Origin: Escherichia coli
Lineage (GTDB): Bacteria; Pseudomonadota; Gammaproteobacteria; Enterobacterales; Enterobacteriaceae
Direction: 5' to 3' (one strand)
Length of the DNA: 64,000 bases
Assembly (NCBI RefSeq): GCF_009931435.1
Contig: NZ_CP043414.1
The notes beneath the pieces were generated by a model, which had not been told where the DNA came from, ran no database searches, and worked only from the letters and a program-made list of their open reading frames with translations. The position numbers and the translations under genes are program-made. Below are positions 3,136 through 60,900 of the stretch, one piece after another. Numbering within the stretch: position 1 is the first letter of the stretch; every line of letters starts with the position of its first letter.

Positions 3136-3215
3136 AGGCCTGATAAGTTGCGACAAGCGTCGCATCAGGCATTTGCTCCAGACGCCAGATGCGGCGTGAA
3201 CGCCTTATCTGGCCT
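3136..3215. repeat. REP/BIME-type palindromic intergenic repeat
   Basis: gcctgataag...gcatcaggc and gatgcggcgtgaacgccttatctggcctac motifs typical of enterobacterial REP units. Confidence 0.6.
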
Positions 3216-9799: not shown

Positions 9800-9891
9800 G
9801 AGGTGATGGATTAGTAGAAGTGAATTGATGTGAGGTTAAGAAAGCAGGTTCGGTGTTGCTCTGATTGCTGACAAAGTGCGCTTTGTTCATG

Positions 9892-9990
9892 ACGGATGCG
9901 GCGTTAACGCCTTATCCGGTCTACAAAGTCCTGAAAATTCAATATATTGCGATACGCTGTCAGGCCTGATAAGCGTAGCGCATCAGGCAA
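9892..9990. repeat. REP/BIME palindromic repeat cluster
   Basis: gatgcggcgttaacgccttatccggtctac ... caggcctgataagcgtagcgcatcaggc. Confidence 0.6.
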
Positions 9991-14420: not shown

Positions 14421-14520
14421 TGTGCTTCCTCATTATGGTGACGCATACATAGCGTTCTCATTTCGTGCGCACATTGTAAACCAGAGTTGCGAAGGTACAA
14501 AAAATTAACGTTTTAGCAAT

Positions 14521-14547
14521 AGCTATATAATATAGCCATTGCTAAAT
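14521..14547. repeat. Left junction repeat with MntR-box-like dyad (candidate attL/target duplication)
   Basis: agctatataatatagccattgctaaat; 22/27 identical to 45328-45354; lies inside larger palindrome tttagcaatagctatat/atatagccattgctaaa (14512-14546). Confidence 0.4.
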
Positions 14548-14824
14548 ACATAAAATCAAATAAAATCATAATGTTAACAAAACAAAAAAAATAATCAATG
14601 TCGCAAAAATGTCTCACAAAACAAAAGCCATAACTTATTTGCTTGTTTTTTTATAGTGTCAGTATTAATCTAGTATATCAAAATGTTATCACTTCAATTA
14701 TTCTCTGCTTAACATTTATTTAAGAAATAATATTTTTAAGCTCTTTAAAAAAACCTTAAATAACGCTGATAGTTTCTTAGGAAAACTTAACGATAGTGGT
14801 AAATTAATCCCAAAGGACTAAAAA

Positions 14825-16060
14825 ATGGTATTAAGTAACTGTATTCAATGTCAGTCATGCAAATTTATATATAGAGTTAGGGTTGGTATTGGGTTTGATA
14901 AATACCAAAGACATTATATGGACTGTTTTGAGTGTAATATTCCTATTGTTTTTGCTATACGAACAGACCCACCAAATGCTTATCTTGAAGCGGAAGAAAA
15001 CTGCCTAATTGTTGAACATAGTACAGACCACAAGGTTGTTAACTTCCATCCGGGATGTGCTTTTAATAAAGATGAGATACATCAGTCACTGATATTCCCA
15101 TCTATTGAATTGACACAAATGATTCATAAACATATGAGGATGCCGAAAGGACAACGCCTTATAAGTGCCTCTCATCAATTTGATATTCCCAACGCCCCCT
15201 CCAAATGGAATTATTTAAAATCAATAATAAAACTTATTAATGAAGGAAAGAAAGACAAAGCTCAGAATACAGCAAAGCTTTATATGCAATCAAGAAATAA
15301 AGAGTTACCTTTGTATAATGAAGATGATAGCTATTCCTCTACATCTCTAATCTATGAGTTTTTAGATTGGCTTTTCTATCCTCGAGTACATGATATAGCC
15401 GATTCCATTAAAAAAACAATTGATGACCTTAAAGAACAAAATTTGTTGGATGATTTTTACGCTTTCTATAAAGAAAATTTAAAATCCGAAAATGAACAAA
15501 GATACATCAATATAATATCAGATTTCATGGCTCGTAGAGATCATTTCGGGCAGTTAATCTATTACGCAAGAATTAACAACGATGCAATAGACGATAAGAT
15601 AATTAGCTCTAAGAACTTCGATAATGTAAGAAATTATTATGGAGATGCTTATGAAAGTCTGACATCTAACATGACTATTTTAGCATGTATTAATAACATC
15701 GTCAGTGGAAGGGCATTCGATCAGTTCAAGCAAATGACATTGAATAAATACATAAAGGATGTAAATAAAGACAGTAAAACAAACCCATTTAAGGACAACC
15801 CTTTATTTAGCGCATTTTGTGAAGATGATTTAGAGTCAGCAATAAGAAATGGTTCTCATCATGCCTCTATATGGCATGACGGAGAGAGTATTCGATATAG
15901 AAGTGGCGGAACTGGCGCAGAAAGAGAAATAAGCTATACAAAATATATTCACCTTTGTAATAAGCTAACTCTTAAAATCGTAAGTTTGTGGTTAATTGAA
16001 CTTCATATCCAACATATTTACGAAAAAGATGATAATAGCTATGCATGGTTTCATCTTTAA
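14825..16060 (+). CDS. Hypothetical 411-aa protein with N-terminal CxxCxxC...CxxC zinc-ribbon-like cluster; orphan cargo, candidate defence/abortive-infection protein
   Basis: ORF track; A/T-rich codon usage, preceded by ~270 bp of extremely A/T-rich DNA; Cys at 6,9,12,34,37; R-x4-H (RNGSHH) near C-terminus; no family recognised. Confidence 0.5.
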   Translation: MVLSNCIQCQSCKFIYRVRVGIGFDKYQRHYMDCFECNIPIVFAIRTDPPNAYLEAEENCLIVEHSTDHKVVNFHPGCAFNKDEIHQSLIFPSIELTQMIHKHMRMPKGQRLISASHQFDIPNAPSKWNYLKSIIKLINEGKKDKAQNTAKLYMQSRNKELPLYNEDDSYSSTSLIYEFLDWLFYPRVHDIADSIKKTIDDLKEQNLLDDFYAFYKENLKSENEQRYINIISDFMARRDHFGQLIYYARINNDAIDDKIISSKNFDNVRNYYGDAYESLTSNMTILACINNIVSGRAFDQFKQMTLNKYIKDVNKDSKTNPFKDNPLFSAFCEDDLESAIRNGSHHASIWHDGESIRYRSGGTGAEREISYTKYIHLCNKLTLKIVSLWLIELHIQHIYEKDDNSYAWFHL

Positions 16061-37433: not shown

Positions 37434-39458
37434 CTATAACCACCCCGGCCACAGCTCCTGTAATGGCTCGTTTTGAGTCTCTTTAAGCCGTCCGTTGCGG
37501 TAAATCAGAGCGCCCTGACCAAATCTCAAACCACTACCCCGCAGGAGAATAGCTATTTCTTCATCAGAACCATCAAAACCCCGACTGCGTAATTCCAGTT
37601 TTAACCGTCTGCGGGTTCCCCCTTCCGTACAGTTATTGACAGAACTCCAAGGGGCGGCGTTGCCGCCAGAAAAACCCGCCTCCGCTGGCGCTGCGGCCAA
37701 CTTCGCAACCTTCTGCCACTTCACCAGGCGCGTACATACCGCTGAATCTGGAATCAATGGAGAATAGACACCCTGAACGCGCTGCACGTCCTCTGCGTAT
37801 TCATTGCCCTGCTCTGTGATTTCATAAGCCAGACGAACAACCAGATCACGACGGGCAACCAGTGCGCCACCCTGCTCCTGGGTGTATGCCGCCCAGTCCC
37901 CAACATCCGCAGCAGCCAGAACCGCATCCATTCTGCGGTCAGTCAGCACCTGATCACGTAACCGGCGCAACTCGCGCCAGACTGTCACTGGCGCACCGCC
38001 AATCTGCTGAAACTGGCGAATGCGCCAGCGTGAAGCCCATGCAGAAACGGACTTGGCCATATCCCGCAGGTTCTCCCCTGTTTCGTCGTCCTGCTCACCA
38101 TCCAGCGCAAACCCATCAATGTTTTTGGATATGTATTTGGCGATGTAACCCGTAGCCGAACCTTTAGCGGGATCGATGGCTTCAACATGGAAACGTGCCT
38201 TTAGCGCGTTTGGCGTTTGCAGTTCTTCGGAGTCGGTAATTCTGGCGTGATAGCAAAGAATATCGCGCACGGTATCCACATCACCAGGACGCATAAAAAG
38301 CAGCATGTGCCAGTGCGGTGTCCCATCGTGGTGAGGCTCTACCACACGAAAACCAAAAACATGGATACCAGCACGGGAAATAGCGGCGCGGGCTTTCGCC
38401 CATACACCGCATAAGTAACGCTGGGTGTCCTGCGGGGTGCAGCCATCCCACTGTGAAACAAAGCCCCCTTTGCTGTGTACCGCATGGAATCGCGATGGCG
38501 CAGTGATGGTGTAAAACTCACCGGCCAGCCCTTCTTCATTGGCCATATCTTCAAATCCTCTCATTCTTACCATTAGCTCACAGCGACGGATCGCCGGATT
38601 AGCAACGCTGCGGTGCACCATGCTGTCCAGCGCAATACGCAGCCCTTCATCATTCAGCAGGTCAAACTTTTTGAAGAACTCAAGGTTCCGCTTTTTCTGG
38701 TCTATCCATTCGCCCAGGGTTTTACGGGACACATAAGCGCTGGCCGCTTTCTGTACTTGCCCCACTGCAATGGCCATATGCTCACGCTGCATATCCCGCG
38801 CCCGCTTAAGACGCAGATACCACCATTCTGGTGCCATCATGCGGAGGATCCCGGATTCAGCCTTACGCGTTTCCAGTTGCCCGCCATTAGCTTCATGTTC
38901 AGCCCAGTACGGCGGCGGATTGTTCAGCATCAGGGAACACGTGCATAAATGGCGGTAAGACTCCAGCGTACGGCGGCGCAGCTCTGCGGCATCGTCAGTG
39001 CTGCCCACAAACTGATTGGTAAAGTCATACAGTGACTGGGAGATCCAGCCAGATATCTGGCCAGCCAGTTTTTTGAGTTCCGGGCGGTCAAGTGACGGCA
39101 GTCGCTCCAGCGACTTACCGAAAGGAAGATCAAGTGCATCAGCGGCCAGTTTGTAACGTGCAGCCACTTTTCGCAGACGTGGCAATACATTCCCGCCGAT
39201 AGTTTTGCGCAGGAATGTATTGGCACGGCGACGCCCGTCACGACCAGCCAGCAGCTTTTCGTAACGGTTGCCAAAATACCCGGCTAACCAGTCGGGTATT
39301 TCATGCAGGTACTGGGATCGCCATTCATAATCCTGTGGGTTTACAGCCCGCAAACGGCGTTCTGTGATCGTTGCATCTGAAGGAGTGCCAGGCGCAAAGG
39401 TTTCACGCCGCCAGGCATTGACGGCGTGGTGTTGGCCAGGCTCCAGCATATCAACCAC
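37434..39458 (-). CDS. Replication initiation endonuclease (P2 gpA / 186 A family)
   Basis: 674 aa; size and position in early operon downstream of dam. Confidence 0.65.
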   Translation of the reverse strand: MVDMLEPGQHHAVNAWRRETFAPGTPSDATITERRLRAVNPQDYEWRSQYLHEIPDWLAGYFGNRYEKLLAGRDGRRRANTFLRKTIGGNVLPRLRKVAARYKLAADALDLPFGKSLERLPSLDRPELKKLAGQISGWISQSLYDFTNQFVGSTDDAAELRRRTLESYRHLCTCSLMLNNPPPYWAEHEANGGQLETRKAESGILRMMAPEWWYLRLKRARDMQREHMAIAVGQVQKAASAYVSRKTLGEWIDQKKRNLEFFKKFDLLNDEGLRIALDSMVHRSVANPAIRRCELMVRMRGFEDMANEEGLAGEFYTITAPSRFHAVHSKGGFVSQWDGCTPQDTQRYLCGVWAKARAAISRAGIHVFGFRVVEPHHDGTPHWHMLLFMRPGDVDTVRDILCYHARITDSEELQTPNALKARFHVEAIDPAKGSATGYIAKYISKNIDGFALDGEQDDETGENLRDMAKSVSAWASRWRIRQFQQIGGAPVTVWRELRRLRDQVLTDRRMDAVLAAADVGDWAAYTQEQGGALVARRDLVVRLAYEITEQGNEYAEDVQRVQGVYSPLIPDSAVCTRLVKWQKVAKLAAAPAEAGFSGGNAAPWSSVNNCTEGGTRRRLKLELRSRGFDGSDEEIAILLRGSGLRFGQGALIYRNGRLKETQNEPLQELWPGWL

Positions 39459-39651
39459 GGTTAACCCACTTGCGCCAGAAATCTATCAGGAAGGCCACTA
39501 CCAGCGGTAGCCAGAAAACCGCACTCAGAGTGATTAACCCTAAGTCCTCAGCGTCGTGATCAAATTCATCCGGGCATTCGTCCCATAAGAGAAAAGCGAA
39601 AGTGATACAGGCAAACAAGGCATAAAAGCCGGTGATAATTTCCGTCATCAT
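39451..39651 (-). CDS. Small hydrophobic protein (2 predicted TM helices)
   Basis: 66-aa ORF overlapping dam stop and gpA-like start. Confidence 0.3.
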   Translation of the reverse strand: MMTEIITGFYALFACITFAFLLWDECPDEFDHDAEDLGLITLSAVFWLPLVVAFLIDFWRKWVNRG

Positions 39652-40517
39652 GCCACCACCGCCCGAACATCGATCGCAGGGTTAGCAGGTGACTTAAGAA
39701 TCAGCTCAGCGGCCATTTTCTGGCTTGCAGCTGCTGCACCCACACTACGTGGCGCATTTACCCGAACAGCGTCGAATCCTGCATACAGGTAATGCACCAT
39801 TTCCAGATCGCTATTTGACGCGACAACCTTAATCCCACGCTCAGTCAGGCGGCGCAGCTTACGCGCCAGCCGTCCCTGATCCATGTGCGAAAAACCGCGC
39901 TCATGGTAAGCGGTGAAATTATCGCTATCAGTCAGGTAAGGCGGATCACAATAAACAACGTCATGCCCGTCCCTTACCAAATCAAGCGTTTCTGAATAGT
40001 GGGCAGTAATGAACGTTGCACGTTTCGCTTTTTCAGCAAAAGCGCGGATTTCATCAGCAGGAAAGTAGGTTTTTTTGTACTTACCAAAAGGAACATTGAA
40101 CTGGCCACGGCGATTGTATCGGCACAGGCCATTGAAGCAGTGACGGTTCAGATAAAGAAAACGCGCCGCAGCTTCCACAGATTCAGAACCAAAGGATTTG
40201 CCTGATTGGTTGAAGGCATCACGCACCGCGTAATAGAAAACAGCGCGGCTTTCTTCATTGCCTAATGAACCGGCAGAAAATAAAGCCTCCAGCTCAATGA
40301 GCAATGCATCAGTCTGATAGGCCATTGTCTTATACAGATTAACCAGGTCGGGATTCACATCAGCGATCAGGTACTCGCCATAATCCGTATTCATCATGAC
40401 AGCACATGAACCGGCAAAAGGTTCTATCAGGCGCTTGCCCTCCGGCAGATGGGGAAGCAACTGCGGCATAAGGCGGGCTTTACTGCCCACCCACTTAAGC
40501 GGAGTTTTTACTGCCAT
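39648..40517 (-). CDS. DNA adenine methyltransferase (Dam-like N6-adenine MTase), prophage-encoded
   Basis: 289 aa with N-terminal FAGS (EPFAGSCAV) SAM motif and DPPY catalytic motif (VVYCDPPYL). Confidence 0.8.
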   Translation of the reverse strand: MAVKTPLKWVGSKARLMPQLLPHLPEGKRLIEPFAGSCAVMMNTDYGEYLIADVNPDLVNLYKTMAYQTDALLIELEALFSAGSLGNEESRAVFYYAVRDAFNQSGKSFGSESVEAAARFLYLNRHCFNGLCRYNRRGQFNVPFGKYKKTYFPADEIRAFAEKAKRATFITAHYSETLDLVRDGHDVVYCDPPYLTDSDNFTAYHERGFSHMDQGRLARKLRRLTERGIKVVASNSDLEMVHYLYAGFDAVRVNAPRSVGAAAASQKMAAELILKSPANPAIDVRAVVA

Positions 40518-40741
40518 GCTGCACCGCCTTTACTGCAAATCGCTGCGGCTTCTTCGCGGATTAACTCAACGATTTCCGTTGCGCTTAAACCTTCATTGAC
40601 GGCATGGGTGGCCAGCTTATCCAGGCGGGTGGAACACAGATCAGCAGCAGCTGCTTTACCTTCCTGCGTGGCTTTGGTGAGCATAGCCAGCAGGTCAGTG
40701 CCTGATTTTGTTGCGGGTAAATCCTGACATGTCATGTGCAT
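40508..40741 (-). CDS. Hypothetical phage early protein (77 aa)
   Basis: ORF track; operon with overlapping stop/start; no motif recognised. Confidence 0.3.
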   Translation of the reverse strand: MHMTCQDLPATKSGTDLLAMLTKATQEGKAAAADLCSTRLDKLATHAVNEGLSATEIVELIREEAAAICSKGGAAWQ

Positions 40742-40808
40742 TTTGGTTTCCTTAAGGCAAAAGAATCCCCGGCCACCTAAGCTGTGGCCAAAAAATTCAG
40801 GTTGTTAA

Positions 40809-41830: not shown

Positions 41831-42334
41831 TCACATCAAGCCGGTCGCATTAGCCGTAACCAGATCCACCGCTGCGGCCAGAACGGGCGCAGACTGGATA
41901 CGGCTTTCAACGGTATAAGCCAGCACGGATAAGCTGCGGATGGCATCGCGAGCGCGATCCAGAATTTGTGTACGGCGGGCGGCGGTCATATGACCAGTTG
42001 ATACGGCTTCCCCAGCAATTGCACCCACACAGGCTGTGGCACTTAGTGCACACAACTGCATGTTGCCTTCTGTGGCATTGTTCACCGGTACGGATGGGAG
42101 ACAGTTAATCTGCCCCAGCATTCCATCCAGTAAACGTGCATCTTCGGTGTAATCCGTAATAGCTAAAAGCTCGTCACAGGTTAAACGGTGCGGCTGTGCT
42201 GGATTCAATTTGTTACGCAGAATCTGCGGCCTCATACCAACGGCAGCGGCTACATCTTCCAGATTGTGTTCAATTGCAAATGCTCGGCAAGCCGCATCAA
42301 AGTGAGCATGTTTAGAGGTCTGGTAATCAAACAT
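41831..42334 (-). CDS. CII-like phage regulatory protein (186 CII / CP76-type)
   Basis: 167 aa, position immediately downstream of apl/cox-like gene as in 186. Confidence 0.45.
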   Translation of the reverse strand: MFDYQTSKHAHFDAACRAFAIEHNLEDVAAAVGMRPQILRNKLNPAQPHRLTCDELLAITDYTEDARLLDGMLGQINCLPSVPVNNATEGNMQLCALSATACVGAIAGEAVSTGHMTAARRTQILDRARDAIRSLSVLAYTVESRIQSAPVLAAAVDLVTANATGLM

Positions 42335-42619: not shown

Positions 42620-42721
42620 TACAGGGTTATATAAGGCTGCATTCGAAATGTGGAGCCAGATTAATTCGCGTTTCGAGAAGTGTCAATCACAATTTCTCGA
42701 ATCGAGATTTATGGATTCGTT
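42620..42721. promoter_or_regulatory. Lysis-lysogeny switch region with operator-like inverted repeats
   Basis: TTCGAGAA-N14-TTCTCGAA perfect 8-bp inverted repeat (about 42671-42700) and CGAAAtg...cgTTTCG, between divergent regulators. Confidence 0.4.
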
Positions 42722-43303
42722 ATGAGCACATTCAAAATTGACCTGAACGTTGACAGCACCCCGATTCTGGATCGGGTGATCGAGGCTTACGGATTTACGC
42801 AGAAGTTACAGCTAGCAGAACATCTGGACATGGCTGCCAGTTCTCTATCATCACGCTATAAACGTGGAGTTTTCCCAGCTGATATCGTCGTTAAATGTGT
42901 TGCTGAAACAGGCGCTAACCTGGAATGGCTAGCTACTGGTCACGGCCCCAAATTTAATGATGAAGAATTAGACATTCTCAGAATTCCACGCAGCAAGATC
43001 GTTGATGGCCAGCTTTACGACTCAGGCACTCTTATGCTTGATAAAGTCACTTTCCTACCAGGTAAATCACTACCACAACAGCCGTTATGCGTTTTGGATG
43101 GTCTTGTACAGTACATCGTTGACCAGTCTTACTCTGAAGTTTATGACGACGATTGGCTGGTTGAAGTAGAAGGAAAAATTAGCATTCGTACACTGACAAG
43201 AATTCCAGTACGCAAAGTAAGAGTTAGTGGCGTGGGCATGGCTTTTGATTGTGGCATCGACGACATAAAAATCATTGGCCGCGTAGTTCTGACGATTAAA
43301 TAA
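42722..43303 (+). CDS. CI-like prophage repressor (186 CI-type)
   Basis: Track ORF starts at GTG 42680; ATG 42722 gives 193 aa (MSTFKIDLNV...); int immediately downstream. Confidence 0.55.
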   Translation: MSTFKIDLNVDSTPILDRVIEAYGFTQKLQLAEHLDMAASSLSSRYKRGVFPADIVVKCVAETGANLEWLATGHGPKFNDEELDILRIPRSKIVDGQLYDSGTLMLDKVTFLPGKSLPQQPLCVLDGLVQYIVDQSYSEVYDDDWLVEVEGKISIRTLTRIPVRKVRVSGVGMAFDCGIDDIKIIGRVVLTIK

Positions 43304-43304
43304 A

Positions 43305-44360
43305 ATGAGTGTTCGTAAACTTCCTACTGGCGAATGGATCGCCGACTTCTACACCGTCAACCGCAGCAATGGTAAAAACGGGAAGCGTATACGTAAAAAA
43401 TTTGCCACTAAGGGAGAAGCCCTGGCATTTGAGAATCACACGCTTCAAAAGGTAGATAGTGCGCCGTGGTTAGGTGAAGGGAAAGATAAACGAACATTAA
43501 TCGACCTGATTACAATGTGGTACGAGCGCCACGGCGTTGCCCTACGCAATGGTAAAAAGCGTAAAGACGCAATGACCTGGGCGGCGGAGTGTATGGGTTT
43601 TCCGCTGGCCACTGAGTTTAATGCCCAGCTGTTTACAGCATACCGTGCAAAAAGGCTTGAAGGGCATTATGCCCGTACTAACCGTGTTTCTAAGGTTTCA
43701 CCTAAAACAATGAACCTTGAACACGCATATTTTCTGGCTATGTTCAATGAACTGAAACGGATCGGTGAGTGGTCAGCCCCTAACCCACTGGAGAACGTCA
43801 GACAGTACCGTACAGATGAAACTGAAATGGCATTTCTCACTGCTGAGGAAATTGATCGGCTTTTGCTGGAATGCAAACGCAGTAAAGTAAGTTATTTAGA
43901 GTTAGTCGTAAAAATCTGTCTGGCGACTGGCGCAAGATGGAATGAAGCGGCAACACTCAAAAGTTCCCAGATAGCCGGCGGAAAAGTCACCTTCATAAAA
44001 ACAAAAGGGAAAAGGAACCGTTCCATTCCGTTAGATGATGAACTGCTGGCTGAACTACCCGAAACAAAAGGCGCTCTGTTTCCAAAGCCCTGCTATAACG
44101 CTTTCCGTTCCGCTCTGGAACGTGCTGGCATTGAACTACCAGCAGGTCAGCTTACCCACGTACTACGCCATACATTTGCCAGCCACTTTATGATGAACAG
44201 CGGCAACATTCTGGTTCTCCAAAAAATCCTCGGCCATGCCGATATCACTATGACAATGCGGTATGCGCATTTCGCCCCAAGCCACCTTGAAGACGCTGTG
44301 CGACTTAATCCCTTAAAATGCCGCAGCAGCTTAGAAATACTGTCGAGTACCAAAACATAA
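43305..44360 (+). CDS. int: Tyrosine-type phage integrase
   Basis: 351 aa; C-terminal catalytic region HVLRHTFASH...LGHADITMTMRYAHF (R, HxxR, Y). Confidence 0.85.
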   Translation: MSVRKLPTGEWIADFYTVNRSNGKNGKRIRKKFATKGEALAFENHTLQKVDSAPWLGEGKDKRTLIDLITMWYERHGVALRNGKKRKDAMTWAAECMGFPLATEFNAQLFTAYRAKRLEGHYARTNRVSKVSPKTMNLEHAYFLAMFNELKRIGEWSAPNPLENVRQYRTDETEMAFLTAEEIDRLLLECKRSKVSYLELVVKICLATGARWNEAATLKSSQIAGGKVTFIKTKGKRNRSIPLDDELLAELPETKGALFPKPCYNAFRSALERAGIELPAGQLTHVLRHTFASHFMMNSGNILVLQKILGHADITMTMRYAHFAPSHLEDAVRLNPLKCRSSLEILSSTKT

Positions 44361-44380: not shown

Positions 44381-44962
44381 CTAACCTGTTTTCAGCAACA
44401 ACCACTGGAGGAAAACAACAACAATGTAGATTAAAGTTACAGACCCCAGAAACAGCAATAGTTGACAAAAATGAATAAAGGCCGGATGGTGAAGTTTTTG
44501 AGGAACCAAGGTTATATTTCGTGCAATTCCTTCTTTACATCTCACTGTGAGCAACGCGGGTAAGTCAGTATTTATCGACATAACCTCACATCGTATAGAT
44601 TCATGTGGTGCAAGATAATCAAACAACATAACCTGCCTTTCTTCGGCATCACTCTTAATTGTGTAATGCCTTGAGGGCCAAATGTTTACGTACATAGGTG
44701 GGTAATTGAAAATTATCTCCACATTAGTAGCAGGTTCTTTTCCTTCGTTTTTAAAGGCATAGGATTTTGTATGCACCACCTGTTTTGCCTTAACAATTTC
44801 ACCTTCAGCATTACGTAACGGCTCGTTAATTAAATAGCTATATTGGTGAAGCTCTCCATAGCAAATTTTCGCTCCATTTTTAAAAATCTTATTGATAAAT
44901 AAGGTAAAAACAGGAACGAAAAGTGCAAATATTTCTTTCCCATACTGAGTAAGTATATTCAT
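44381..44962 (-). CDS. Hypothetical 193-aa protein with C-terminal TM helix; orphan cargo adjacent to int
   Basis: ORF track; A/T-rich; hydrophobic C-terminus AFIHFCQLLLFLGSVTLIYIVVVFLQWLLL; convergent with int; weak RBS. Confidence 0.4.
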   Translation of the reverse strand: MNILTQYGKEIFALFVPVFTLFINKIFKNGAKICYGELHQYSYLINEPLRNAEGEIVKAKQVVHTKSYAFKNEGKEPATNVEIIFNYPPMYVNIWPSRHYTIKSDAEERQVMLFDYLAPHESIRCEVMSINTDLPALLTVRCKEGIARNITLVPQKLHHPAFIHFCQLLLFLGSVTLIYIVVVFLQWLLLKTG

Positions 44963-45104: not shown

Positions 45105-45260
45105 AGCGTACCCATTTTAATTTCAGCCGCTTTCTGGCTTGCAGCCGCTACCCCCGCATTGCGCGGTGCATTTCGCCCCAAGCTACCTTGAAGAAGCTGT
45201 ACGCTTAACCCCTTAAAATGTCGCAAAATTGTCGCGACAGCTTAGAAACACTGCCGAATA
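45105..45260. pseudogene. Fossil fragments of a related element: dam-like 3' end (minus sense) fused to int-like 3' end (plus sense)
   Basis: 45121-45180 about 75 percent identical to dam 3' region 39703-39760; 45168-45260 about 90 percent identical to int 3' end 44268-44350 but with 1-nt deletion and ~11-nt insertion. Confidence 0.5.
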
Positions 45261-45327
45261 CTCACGAATATTAACTAACGTAACTTATTGATAACACTGT
45301 AAGTTACTGTTTTTCGTAGATAGTTAA

Positions 45328-45354
45328 TGCTTTATAATATAGCCTGTGCTATAT
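45328..45354. promoter_or_regulatory. Right junction repeat containing MntR box (ATAGC-N4-GCTAT) upstream of mntS
   Basis: tgctttataatatagcctgtgctatat; palindrome ATAGCctgtGCTAT matches MntR operator architecture; 22/27 identical to 14521-14547. Confidence 0.5.
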
Positions 45355-45412
45355 CTGTATGTAATGCAATCATCCCTCAAGGATCGACGGGATTAGCAAG
45401 TCAGGAGGTCTT

Positions 45413-59067: not shown

Positions 59068-59166
59068 GCCTGATGCGCTGCGCTTATCAGGCCTACAAGG
59101 TTGTGCAATGCATTGAATTCACATCATTTGGTAGGCCGGATAAGGCGTTCACGCCGCATCCGGCAT
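59068..59166. repeat. REP/BIME palindromic repeats
   Basis: gcctgatgcgctgcgcttatcaggcctac ... gtaggccggataaggcgttcacgccgcatccggca. Confidence 0.6.
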
Positions 59167-60772: not shown

Positions 60773-60774
60773 TT

Positions 60775-60900
60775 CGTAGGCTGGATAAGGCGTTCACGTC
60801 GCATCCGGCAACAGGTGCCTGATGCGACGCTACCGCATCTTATCAGGCCTACAAAATCCGAACCGTTTGACGGATAAGGCGTTTACGCTACGTCCAGCAT
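60775..60900. repeat. REP/BIME palindromic repeat cluster
   Basis: gtaggctggataaggcgttcacgtcgcatccggca ... gcctgatgcgacgctaccgcatcttatcaggcctac. Confidence 0.6.

What the first reader, a model, noticed from the sequence alone, without database searches (positions are those of the whole stretch)
39648..40517. Prophage-encoded Dam-family adenine methyltransferase
The 289-aa protein has canonical FAGS and DPPY motifs. The host is expected to encode its own Dam, so a phage copy may serve anti-restriction self-protection, packaging or replication timing, or have altered specificity. Its 3' end also shares the short homology involved in the dam/int fossil.
Basis: partly seen in the sequence, partly recalled or inferred. 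Interest (0 to 1): 0.3.

Follow-up and report, generated by a model that had tools for sequence, protein, structure and literature searches.

The report
Prophage Dam (GATC) methyltransferase gene
This is an intact, ordinary copy of a DNA adenine methylase gene carried by a P2/186-like prophage in E. coli; it almost certainly marks the same GATC sites as the host's own enzyme, and it is already annotated in public genomes.

Summary
Window 39648-40517 (minus strand) is an intact 289-aa ORF with FAGS (aa 34-37) and DPPY (aa 191-194). It is a full-length D12-class, Dam-family N6-adenine methyltransferase: Pfam PF02086 E=9e-66, TIGR00571 well above cut-off, and 44% identity to E. coli Dam structure 2G1P at E=7e-59. 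The residues EcoDam uses to read GATC are conserved, so GATC is the predicted target and altered specificity is unlikely. dN/dS of 0.04-0.11 against orthologs shows the gene is maintained. It sits in the early lytic operon of a Peduoviridae (Quadragintavirus-like) prophage inserted between mntR and mntS. It is translationally coupled to its neighbours (DUF2732 > dam > orf66 > gpA), has no restriction partner and no promoter of its own. I therefore infer that it is silent in the lysogen and acts on replicating phage DNA. The "dam/int fossil" is real (45126-45261) but incidental. The identical protein is already annotated in RefSeq as "DNA adenine methylase", and Dam genes are known in related phages. 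Low interest.

The parts
39648..40517 (-). dam: 289-aa orphan D12-class (alpha-group) N6-adenine DNA methyltransferase. Motif I FAGSC at aa 34-38, DNA-recognition hairpin FNGLCRYNRRGQFNVPFGKY at aa 128-147, motif IV DPPY at aa 191-194.
40508..40741 (-). DUF2732 gene directly upstream. Its stop overlaps the dam start by 10 nt (ATGGCAGTAA), suggesting translational coupling.
39451..39651 (-). orf66: small hydrophobic ORF of unknown function. Its ATG overlaps the dam stop (ATGA) and its TGA lies 1 nt before the gpA ATG. It occupies the slot where ESSI2_ev129 carries a C5-cytosine methyltransferase.
37434..39449 (-). gpA replication endonuclease (PF05840), the last gene of the coupled chain. The start at 39449 follows the RefSeq annotation.
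40766..40794 (-). Terminator-like hairpin (GGCCAC-AGCTTAG-GTGGCC followed by a T-rich tail) just upstream of the DUF2732 gene. This is the position where phage 186 has tR1, which is anti-terminated during lytic growth.
42658..42686 (-). Candidate pR-like early lytic promoter: TTGACA, 17-nt spacer, TAATCT. It lies between cI and the cox/apl-like gene. It was read by eye and is below the scan threshold.
   Evidence: by analogy with the 186 annotation
41831..42334 (-). cII-like regulator (PF06892), an early-operon marker.
42722..43303 (+). CI repressor (PF07022 and PF16452). Predicted to keep the dam-containing operon off in the lysogen.
43305..44360 (+). Tyrosine integrase.
45126..45173 (-). Fossil dam' fragment. 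It corresponds to dam codons about 253-269 and shares 13 of 17 aa.
45168..45261 (+). Fossil int' 3'-end fragment, joined to dam' through GCATTT, about 70 nt before the att core.
14526..14537 (.). Left att core TATAATATAGCC (prophage boundary, mntR side).
45333..45344 (.). Right att core TATAATATAGCC (prophage boundary, mntS side).

Best explanation
The gene encodes an active, orphan, alpha-group m6A DNA methyltransferase that methylates the adenine of GATC, the same mark written by host Dam.

It is an accessory gene of the early lytic operon of a P2/186-type temperate phage. I infer that it is transcribed from the CI-repressed rightward promoter. It is translated as part of a coupled chain: DUF2732, dam, orf66, then the replication endonuclease gpA. 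It is therefore made when the phage replicates and not in the quiescent lysogen.

Its most likely job is to top up GATC methylation on rapidly replicating phage genomes (about 106 GATC sites per genome), which could outrun the host's own Dam. Packaged DNA then leaves fully methylated. That would protect it from methylation-sensitive GATC-cutting restriction systems and from MutH and SeqA acting on hemimethylated DNA, including in hosts with little or no Dam.

Shown: fold and family, motifs, conserved GATC-reading residues, purifying selection, operon position, orphan status.
Inferred: GATC activity (about 0.85), lytic-only expression (about 0.7), biological role (about 0.45).
For: Family and fold
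- PF02086 matches at full length, E=9e-66.
- TIGR00571 'Dam family' scores 271.7 bits against a cut-off of 114.85.
- The best solved structure is E. coli Dam 2G1P, E=7e-59, with 43.8% identity over 256 aligned residues.

Specificity
- EcoDam residues that read GATC are listed in PMC4417163: K9, Y119, N120, L122, R124, P134, Y138.
- They align to K8, F128, N129, L131, R133, P143 and Y147 here, so all are kept apart from a conservative Tyr-to-Phe change.
- K8, R133, P143, Y147 and DPPY are invariant in 28 family members.

Maintained gene
- dN/dS is 0.04-0.11 against four orthologs, with dS up to 0.7.

Operon context
- Start and stop overlap the neighbouring genes.
- No sigma-70-like promoter lies next to dam.
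- The layout matches annotated phage 186, where pR is repressed by CI, tR1 precedes the DUF2732 gene, the genes up to A are non-essential, and translation of the upstream ORF is needed for A.
- Felsduovirus RE2010 also has dam directly upstream of its replication gene.

Orphan status
- No nuclease neighbour is present, and the best PADLOC model is 'orphan methyltransferase'.

GATC content
- GATC is not avoided in the prophage: 106 sites observed against 105.5 expected.

Precedents
- A prophage Dam homolog in E. coli EC958 was transcriptionally low in the lysogen and added no motif (PMC4659465).
- P1 Dmt and T4 Dam are cited as GATC enzymes of phages (PMC12707154).
Against: - No biochemical or methylome data exist for this protein or, as far as I found, for any homolog above about 65% identity.
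- Specificity is predicted only from residue conservation at 44% identity to EcoDam.
- Motif I lacks the second glycine (FAGSC).
- Expression timing is inferred from gene order and from phage 186. The pR candidate is weak at -10 (3 of 6), and an internal promoter cannot be excluded by a consensus scan.
- The role is speculative. [quoted passage not shown]
- The 186 record marks the genes in the corresponding slot between the DUF2732 gene and A as non-essential, so any benefit is conditional.
Confidence: 0.6

Rival explanations
1. The enzyme has a changed or relaxed specificity, such as GATC plus near-cognate sites or another short motif. It would then give the phage broad protection against several restriction systems, like the semi-specific phage or plasmid orphan methylases.
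For: Reviews note that mobile elements often carry orphan methylases with degenerate sites that are expressed only on exit from the cell (PMC12707154). Recognition of the first base pair is the least conserved contact in the Dam family (PMC4417163). Position 119 is Phe rather than Tyr, and a sub-branch of the family has Y-R instead of F-N in the hairpin. The protein scores below the chromosomal-Dam equivalog cut-off, 254 against 441 bits.
Against: The listed EcoDam base-contact residues are conserved apart from the Tyr-to-Phe change, including K8 for the first base pair and R133 for the fourth. The 20-residue recognition hairpin is identical to EcoDam at 16 of 20 positions. The known non-specific phage enzymes mentioned in the literature belong to other classes.
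Confidence: 0.08
2. The gene is expressed in the lysogen, from an unrecognised internal promoter or by read-through. It would raise total Dam activity and so alter host physiology: mismatch-repair strand discrimination, mutation rate, phase-variable genes and replication timing. That would make it a lysogenic-conversion function.
For: A prophage Dam-like enzyme (PamA) changes host gene expression in S. aureus (PMC13076061). Consensus scans cannot exclude weak promoters. One 9-of-12 match lies about 740 nt upstream, at 41283-41256.
Against: The gene is embedded in, and translationally coupled within, the early lytic operon, downstream of a terminator-like hairpin. In E. coli the host already methylates more than 99% of GATC sites, and a prophage Dam homolog there was transcribed at a low level and added no motif (PMC4659465). 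The S. aureus precedent works in a host with no native Dam.
Confidence: 0.1
3. The gene is a decaying or inactive passenger, or matters only as a translated spacer that delivers ribosomes to orf66 and gpA, so methyltransferase activity is irrelevant.
For: In 186 the slot upstream of A is filled by unrelated non-essential genes, and only translation to the end of the upstream ORF is noted as needed for A. In ESSI2_ev129 and other relatives the content of this slot varies. Motif I lacks the second Gly.
Against: dN/dS of 0.04-0.11 holds across orthologs with dS up to 0.7. Catalytic DPPY, the AdoMet-binding residues and the DNA-contact residues are invariant in 28 homologs from many genera. A mere spacer would not conserve these.
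Confidence: 0.03

Closest known systems
E. coli chromosomal Dam (EcoDam, PDB 2G1P/4RTJ; NCBIfam NF008152)
   Same: Same fold class and motif order (N-terminal AdoMet site, recognition hairpin, DPPY). 43.8% identity over 256 aa. The GATC-contact residues are conserved, with Y119 replaced by Phe.
   Different: It falls below the equivalog cut-off, 254 against 441 bits. It is prophage-borne and not at the conserved chromosomal dam locus. It has a 10-residue insertion region around aa 81-114 and a different C-terminal tail. It is predicted to be expressed only in lytic growth.
Dam genes of other Peduoviridae: Quadragintavirus ESSI2_ev129/ev040/ev015, Felsduovirus RE2010 (Fels-2 type), Haemophilus phage HP1 Dam
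   Same: 90% aa identity to ESSI2_ev129 gp30 and 51% to RE2010 Dam. The position is the same, in the early operon just upstream of the replication gene A. The literature cites HP1 Dam as a cloned phage Dam (PMC7556043).
   Different: ev129 has a second methyltransferase (C5-cytosine) between dam and A, where this prophage has orf66. RE2010 has the Y-R hairpin variant and no intervening ORF. I did not compare the HP1 sequence directly.
Phage P1 Dmt (Dam domain) and T4/T2 Dam
   Same: These are phage-encoded GATC m6A methylases of the same D12 class. P1 Dmt is 38.7% identical. T4 Dam structures match at E=5e-15. Roles reported in a review: P1 needs GATC methylation at pac for packaging, and T4 Dam blocks restriction in vitro (PMC12707154).
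   Different: P1 Dmt is a larger protein, and P1 packaging is pac/headful, whereas P2-type phages use cos sites (my own knowledge, not tested here). T4 Dam is much more distant and acts in a virulent phage with modified DNA.
M.EcoMIV, the prophage Dam homolog of E. coli ST131 EC958
   Same: A prophage-borne PF02086 orphan methylase in E. coli. It was transcribed at a low level in the lysogen and no new motif was detected (PMC4659465).
   Different: Probably a different lineage. Only 27 of 5426 complete E. coli genomes match this gene at about 80% nt identity or better. M.EcoMIV was described as 100% identical to more than 80 MTases annotated in E. coli genomes. I did not compare the sequences directly.

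Membership tests
D12-class / Dam-family N6-adenine DNA methyltransferase (Pfam PF02086; NCBIfam TIGR00571) | Profile match above the curated cut-offs over the full domain | tested here: met
   PF02086 scores 222.6 bits against a cut-off of 22, over profile positions 1-251 of 253. TIGR00571 scores 271.7 bits against 114.85.
D12-class / Dam-family N6-adenine DNA methyltransferase (Pfam PF02086; NCBIfam TIGR00571) | Alpha-group motif order: AdoMet-binding motif I (FxGxG-like) near the N-terminus, then the target-recognition region, then catalytic motif IV (D/N-P-P-Y/F) | tested here: met
   FAGSC lies at aa 34-38, the recognition hairpin at aa 128-147 and DPPY at aa 191-194. The second Gly of motif I is Cys, and this Cys (C38) is invariant in the family.
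D12-class / Dam-family N6-adenine DNA methyltransferase (Pfam PF02086; NCBIfam TIGR00571) | Residues that read GATC in EcoDam: K9, Y119, N120, L122, R124, P134, Y138 | tested here: met
   They align to K8, F128, N129, L131, R133, P143 and Y147 (residue roles from PMC4417163). The only change is a conservative Tyr-to-Phe substitution at position 119.
D12-class / Dam-family N6-adenine DNA methyltransferase (Pfam PF02086; NCBIfam TIGR00571) | Enzymatic methylation of the adenine in GATC | not testable with these tools
   This needs expression in a dam-minus host followed by DpnI/MboI digestion, or methylome sequencing.
Enterobacterial chromosomal Dam (equivalog NF008152 / PRK10904) | Score above the equivalog cut-off | tested here: not met
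   254.4 bits against a cut-off of 441.
Enterobacterial chromosomal Dam (equivalog NF008152 / PRK10904) | Conserved chromosomal location | tested here: not met
   The gene lies inside a 30.8-kb prophage between mntR and mntS. It is present in only 27 of 5426 complete E. coli genomes.
Type II restriction-modification system (methylase half) | A cognate restriction endonuclease gene adjacent to the methylase | tested here: not met
   The neighbours are DUF2732, a 66-aa hydrophobic ORF and gpA. No nuclease family was found. The best PADLOC model is 'orphan methyltransferase', 302 bits.
Peduoviridae (P2/186-type) early-operon accessory gene | Located on the lytic strand between cII/fil/DUF2732 and replication gene A, in a prophage collinear with a classified Peduoviridae genome | tested here: met
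   The window is collinear with ESSI2_ev129 (Quadragintavirus) from 16981 to 42337. 186 and RE2010 have the same layout.

The most novel reading that the evidence does not exclude
The phage Dam could be more than a redundant copy of host Dam. One option is a counter-defence factor timed to replication, neutralising host systems that sense unmethylated or hemimethylated GATC on incoming or replicating DNA. Another is a subtly broadened specificity that shields the phage from several restriction systems. Either would explain why a gene that duplicates a universal host function is kept under strong purifying selection across many enterobacterial Peduoviridae.
Probability: 0.1. Interest if true: 0.45.

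Novelty: already known. Interest (0 to 1): 0.1.

Why it matters
It matters little beyond correct annotation. The exact protein is already in RefSeq as "DNA adenine methylase" (WP_071290234.1). The family has thousands of members in enterobacterial prophages. Phage-borne Dam genes have been known for decades in P1, T2/T4, VT-2 and HP1.

The one general question it touches is why temperate phages of Dam-positive hosts keep their own Dam under strong selection. That question is still open (PMC7556043). This locus offers no special handle on it compared with many equivalent prophages.

Tried and rejected
Hypotheses considered and rejected
- Chance ORF: rejected on E=9e-66 and dN/dS of about 0.07.
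- Restriction-modification pair: rejected because no nuclease neighbour exists and PADLOC favours an orphan methylase.
- GATC avoidance or enrichment in the prophage as a clue to function: there is none, 106 sites observed against 105.5 expected by base composition, a density like the host flanks.
- The fossil as a separate older prophage outside the element: rejected. The only att cores are at 14526 and 45333, so the fossil and orf193 lie inside the prophage. No att copy follows the living int.

Searches that found nothing useful
- An independent promoter for dam: the consensus scan found nothing nearby and fewer hits than shuffled sequence, 2 against 6.5.
- Covariation support for the hairpin upstream of DUF2732: the five sequences are too similar, so there are no compensatory changes.
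- Function of orf66, orf193 and orf411: orf193 and orf411 have no Pfam, PHROG or PADLOC hits; orf66 likewise has none.

Literature and tool dead ends
- Searches with 'Arg124/Lys9' and 'P2-like + Dam methyltransferase' returned irrelevant papers.
- The Murphy 2013 review of phage orphan methylases is not held.
- PMC12455584 concerns host Dam and the ST64B prophage, so it is not relevant.
- Loci L004-L006 never appeared in the Python sandbox, so I used DNA alignment instead.

Not done
- I did not run structure prediction. A solved homolog at E=1e-59 makes it unnecessary.

Full report
**1. Observation**

The window carries an ORF at 39648..40517 on the minus strand, with an ATG start and 289 aa. 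FAGS begins at residue 34 and DPPY at residue 191. The ORF is not a chance reading frame. Pfam PF02086 (D12-class N6-adenine methyltransferase) matches at E=8.9e-66 over essentially the whole profile. NCBIfam TIGR00571 ("Dam family site-specific DNA-(adenine-N6)-methyltransferase") scores 271.7 bits against a cut-off of 114.85. One detail: motif I reads FAGSC, so the second glycine of the textbook FxGxG is a cysteine. That Cys (C38) is invariant across 28 homologs.

**2. Where it sits**

- The window is E. coli chromosome. The gene and its surroundings are 100% identical to NZ_CP106924.1 and NZ_AP044767.1, where the protein is annotated "DNA adenine methylase", WP_071290234.1.
- Comparison with an empty site (NZ_CP018206.1) shows a 30.8-kb insertion in the mntR-mntS intergenic region, bounded by the 12-nt core TATAATATAGCC at 14526-14537 and 45333-45344.
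- The insert is a P2/186-type prophage. It has CI (PF07022/PF16452), CII (PF06892), Fil, DUF2732, gpA (PF05840), ogr/delta, portal, terminase, a P2-family capsid and tail genes.
- It is collinear from 16981 to 42337 with Escherichia phage ESSI2_ev129 (Peduoviridae, genus Quadragintavirus). The integrase and immunity module differs.
- dam lies on the lytic strand in this order: cox/apl-like, cII, fil, orf142, orf133, DUF2732, dam, orf66, gpA.
- The DUF2732 stop overlaps the dam ATG by 10 nt. The dam stop overlaps the orf66 ATG (ATGA). The orf66 TGA lies 1 nt before the gpA ATG.

**3. What the protein is**

The closest solved structures are E. coli Dam (2G1P, 4RTJ and others) at E=7e-59 over aa 7-273, with 43.8% identity over 256 aligned residues. 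DpnM (1e-33) and T4 Dam (5e-15) follow.

Horton and colleagues list the EcoDam residues that read GATC (PMC4417163):

| EcoDam residue | Role | Residue here |
|---|---|---|
| K9 | first base pair | K8 |
| Y119 | intercalates between the inner A:T pairs | F128 |
| N120 | base hydrogen bond | N129 |
| L122 | second Ade in a half-site complex, 'identical to cognate GATC' | L131 |
| R124 | Gua of the fourth pair | R133 |
| P134 | second Ade in a half-site complex, 'identical to cognate GATC' | P143 |
| Y138 | first base pair | Y147 |

The mapping comes from the HMMER alignment. The 20-residue recognition hairpin is FNGLCRYNRRGQFNVPFGKY here and YNGLCRYNLRGEFNVPFGRY in EcoDam. In an alignment of 28 family members at 50-96% identity, K8, D53, R133, P143, Y147 and D191-P-P-Y194 are invariant. 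I therefore predict GATC specificity. This is an inference from conservation, not a measurement.

**4. Is it a live gene?**

Against four orthologs, dS ranges from 0.15 to 0.71 and dN/dS from 0.04 to 0.11. The orthologs are three E. coli prophages at 93-96% nt identity and ESSI2_ev129 at 85%. That is strong purifying selection on the protein.

The family is large: 6473 proteins at E<=1e-20 among the candidates scored. They come from Citrobacter, Salmonella, Enterobacter, Klebsiella, Leclercia, Cronobacter, Kosakonia and Yokenella, almost all 275-289 aa long. In E. coli it is uncommon, present in 27 of 5426 complete genomes at about 80% nt identity or better, always once and always chromosomal.

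**5. Orphan status and relation to host Dam**

No nuclease-like neighbour exists. The best PADLOC model is "orphan methyltransferase" at 302 bits. The protein falls below the cut-off of the chromosomal-Dam equivalog NF008152, 254 against 441 bits. So it belongs to the Dam family but is not the housekeeping Dam. The host's own dam is reported to be present at a syntenic position in all E. coli isolates (PMC4659465).

**6. How it most likely works**

The richly annotated phage 186 record (NC_001317) gives the template:
- pR is repressed by CI and drives the early lytic operon.
- Terminator tR1, which is anti-terminated in lytic growth, sits immediately before the DUF2732 gene.
- The genes between DUF2732 and A are "not essential".
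- Translation to the end of the ORF upstream of A appears necessary for A translation.

This prophage has the same layout:
- A terminator-like hairpin at 40794-40766 lies just before DUF2732. It is conserved in five relatives, without informative covariation.
- The ORF chain runs tightly coupled into gpA.
- A TTGACA-17-TAATCT candidate promoter lies in the cI/apl intergenic region.
- No sigma-70-like promoter lies next to dam.
- Felsduovirus RE2010 also places dam directly upstream of its replication gene.

I infer that dam is co-expressed with the replication functions and is off in the lysogen. This agrees with the report that a prophage Dam homolog in E. coli EC958 is poorly transcribed in the lysogen and adds no detectable motif (PMC4659465).

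The prophage does not avoid GATC: 106 sites against 105.5 expected from base composition. Each round of lytic replication therefore creates many hemimethylated sites. The most economical role is a methylation top-up during replication, so that packaged genomes are fully G(m6A)TC. That would protect against methylation-sensitive GATC-cutting restriction enzymes and against MutH and SeqA action. Reviews give P1 (methylated pac sites) and T4 (in vitro protection) as precedents. They also stress that the function of phage Dam enzymes remains poorly understood (PMC12707154; PMC7556043). My confidence:

| Claim | Confidence |
|---|---|
| Active GATC enzyme | about 0.85 |
| Lytic-only expression | about 0.7 |
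| Top-up or protective role | about 0.45 |

**7. The dam/int fossil**

The fossil is real. 45126-45173 matches dam 39712-39759 at 81% (E=2e-6), and in register it translates to NAPRNAGVAAASQKAAE against NAPRSVGAAAASQKMAAE. It abuts 45168-45261, which matches the int 3' end 44267-44350 at 78% (E=2e-17) and translates to VHFAPSYLEEAVRLTP* against AHFAPSHLEDAVRLNPLK. The two pieces overlap in GCATTT, and the living genes share GCGCATTT at those points.

This fits a microhomology-mediated deletion, in a related ancestral element about 80% identical, that removed everything from the 5' part of dam to most of int. The fossil lies inside the present prophage, about 70 nt before the right att core. 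It is separated from the living int by an unannotatable 193-aa ORF, and no att copy follows the living int. It is 100% identical in strain SC477, whose dam differs by 4%. It therefore travels with the int/att module and looks like a scar of past module exchange or tandem lysogeny.

Homology with ESSI2_ev129 also breaks near the dam 3' end, at about 39686, so this gene end is a recurrent mosaic joint. None of this bears on Dam function.

**8. Comparison with what is known, and novelty**

The gene is a Dam-family orphan methylase of a Peduoviridae prophage. Its closest relatives are ESSI2-type phage gp30 (90% aa) and RE2010/Fels-2-type Dam (51%), then EcoDam (44%) and P1 Dmt (39%). Phage Dam genes have been described for P1, VT-2, the T-even phages and HP1. 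The identical protein is already annotated in RefSeq. I rate it "already known" and of low interest.

The most novel reading still open is a replication-timed counter-defence role or a subtly broadened specificity. I give that about 0.1 probability.

**9. On the proposed tests**

Comparing the methylome of the lysogen with that of a cured strain would probably be uninformative, for two reasons. The gene is predicted to be repressed in the lysogen, and its predicted mark coincides with host Dam, which already methylates more than 99% of GATC sites. A catalytic-site mutant that preserves translational coupling to gpA is the right way to test the role.

Noticed in passing
window 14526-14537 and 45333-45344 (context 14515-14550 and 45322-45357): The prophage integrates in the mntR-mntS intergenic region. 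The att core TATAATATAGCC lies inside a palindromic GCTATATAATATAGC element upstream of mntS. From memory this resembles an MntR operator; I did not test that. After integration the phage supplies a near-copy (GCTTTATAATATAGCC) next to mntS, so mntS regulation may be preserved or subtly altered in lysogens.
   Followed up: partly
window 44381-44962 (-) and 14825-16060 (+): Two cargo ORFs sit at the prophage ends: 193 aa between int and the fossil, and 411 aa with CxxC pairs at its N-terminus just inside the left att site. Neither has a Pfam, PHROG or PADLOC match. Their positions match the end-of-prophage moron or defence slots of P2-like phages. Related prophages at the rcdA site instead carry a TPR protein, or an AAA ATPase plus DUF4276, between cI and int (L005, L006).
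   Followed up: partly
window 39451-39651 (-); L002 22790-23800: The slot between dam and gpA is variable. Here it holds a 66-aa hydrophobic ORF with no family match. ESSI2_ev129 has a 336-aa C5-cytosine methyltransferase (PF00145) there, giving that phage two tandem methylases. Other E. coli relatives have a DUF3850 gene next to dam.
   Followed up: partly
window 40766-40794 (-): A conserved hairpin with a T-rich tail lies in the 67-nt gap before the DUF2732 gene, at the position of 186 terminator tR1. Four of the five compared loci are identical there; ESSI2_ev129 has one one-sided stem change (C-G to U-G) and several loop changes, so there is no compensatory covariation evidence.
   Followed up: partly
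window 45126-45261: A composite dam'/int' pseudogene scar lies inside the prophage, next to attR. It is 100% identical in strain SC477 although that strain's dam differs by 4%. This suggests the int/att module, including the scar, moves as a unit among these phages.
   Followed up: yes
window 3177-3214, 9884-9921, 59128-59165, 60773-60810, 60862-60899: Repeated GC-rich palindromic units (GCCGGATAAGGCGTTCACGCCGCATCCGGC type), in both orientations, lie in the host flanks. They look like ordinary E. coli REP/BIME elements.
   Followed up: no
window 42770 and 42778: Two GATC sites 8 nt apart lie in the 5' coding region of cI, about 50 nt into the gene. I did not test whether their methylation state affects the lysis-lysogeny switch.
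   Followed up: no
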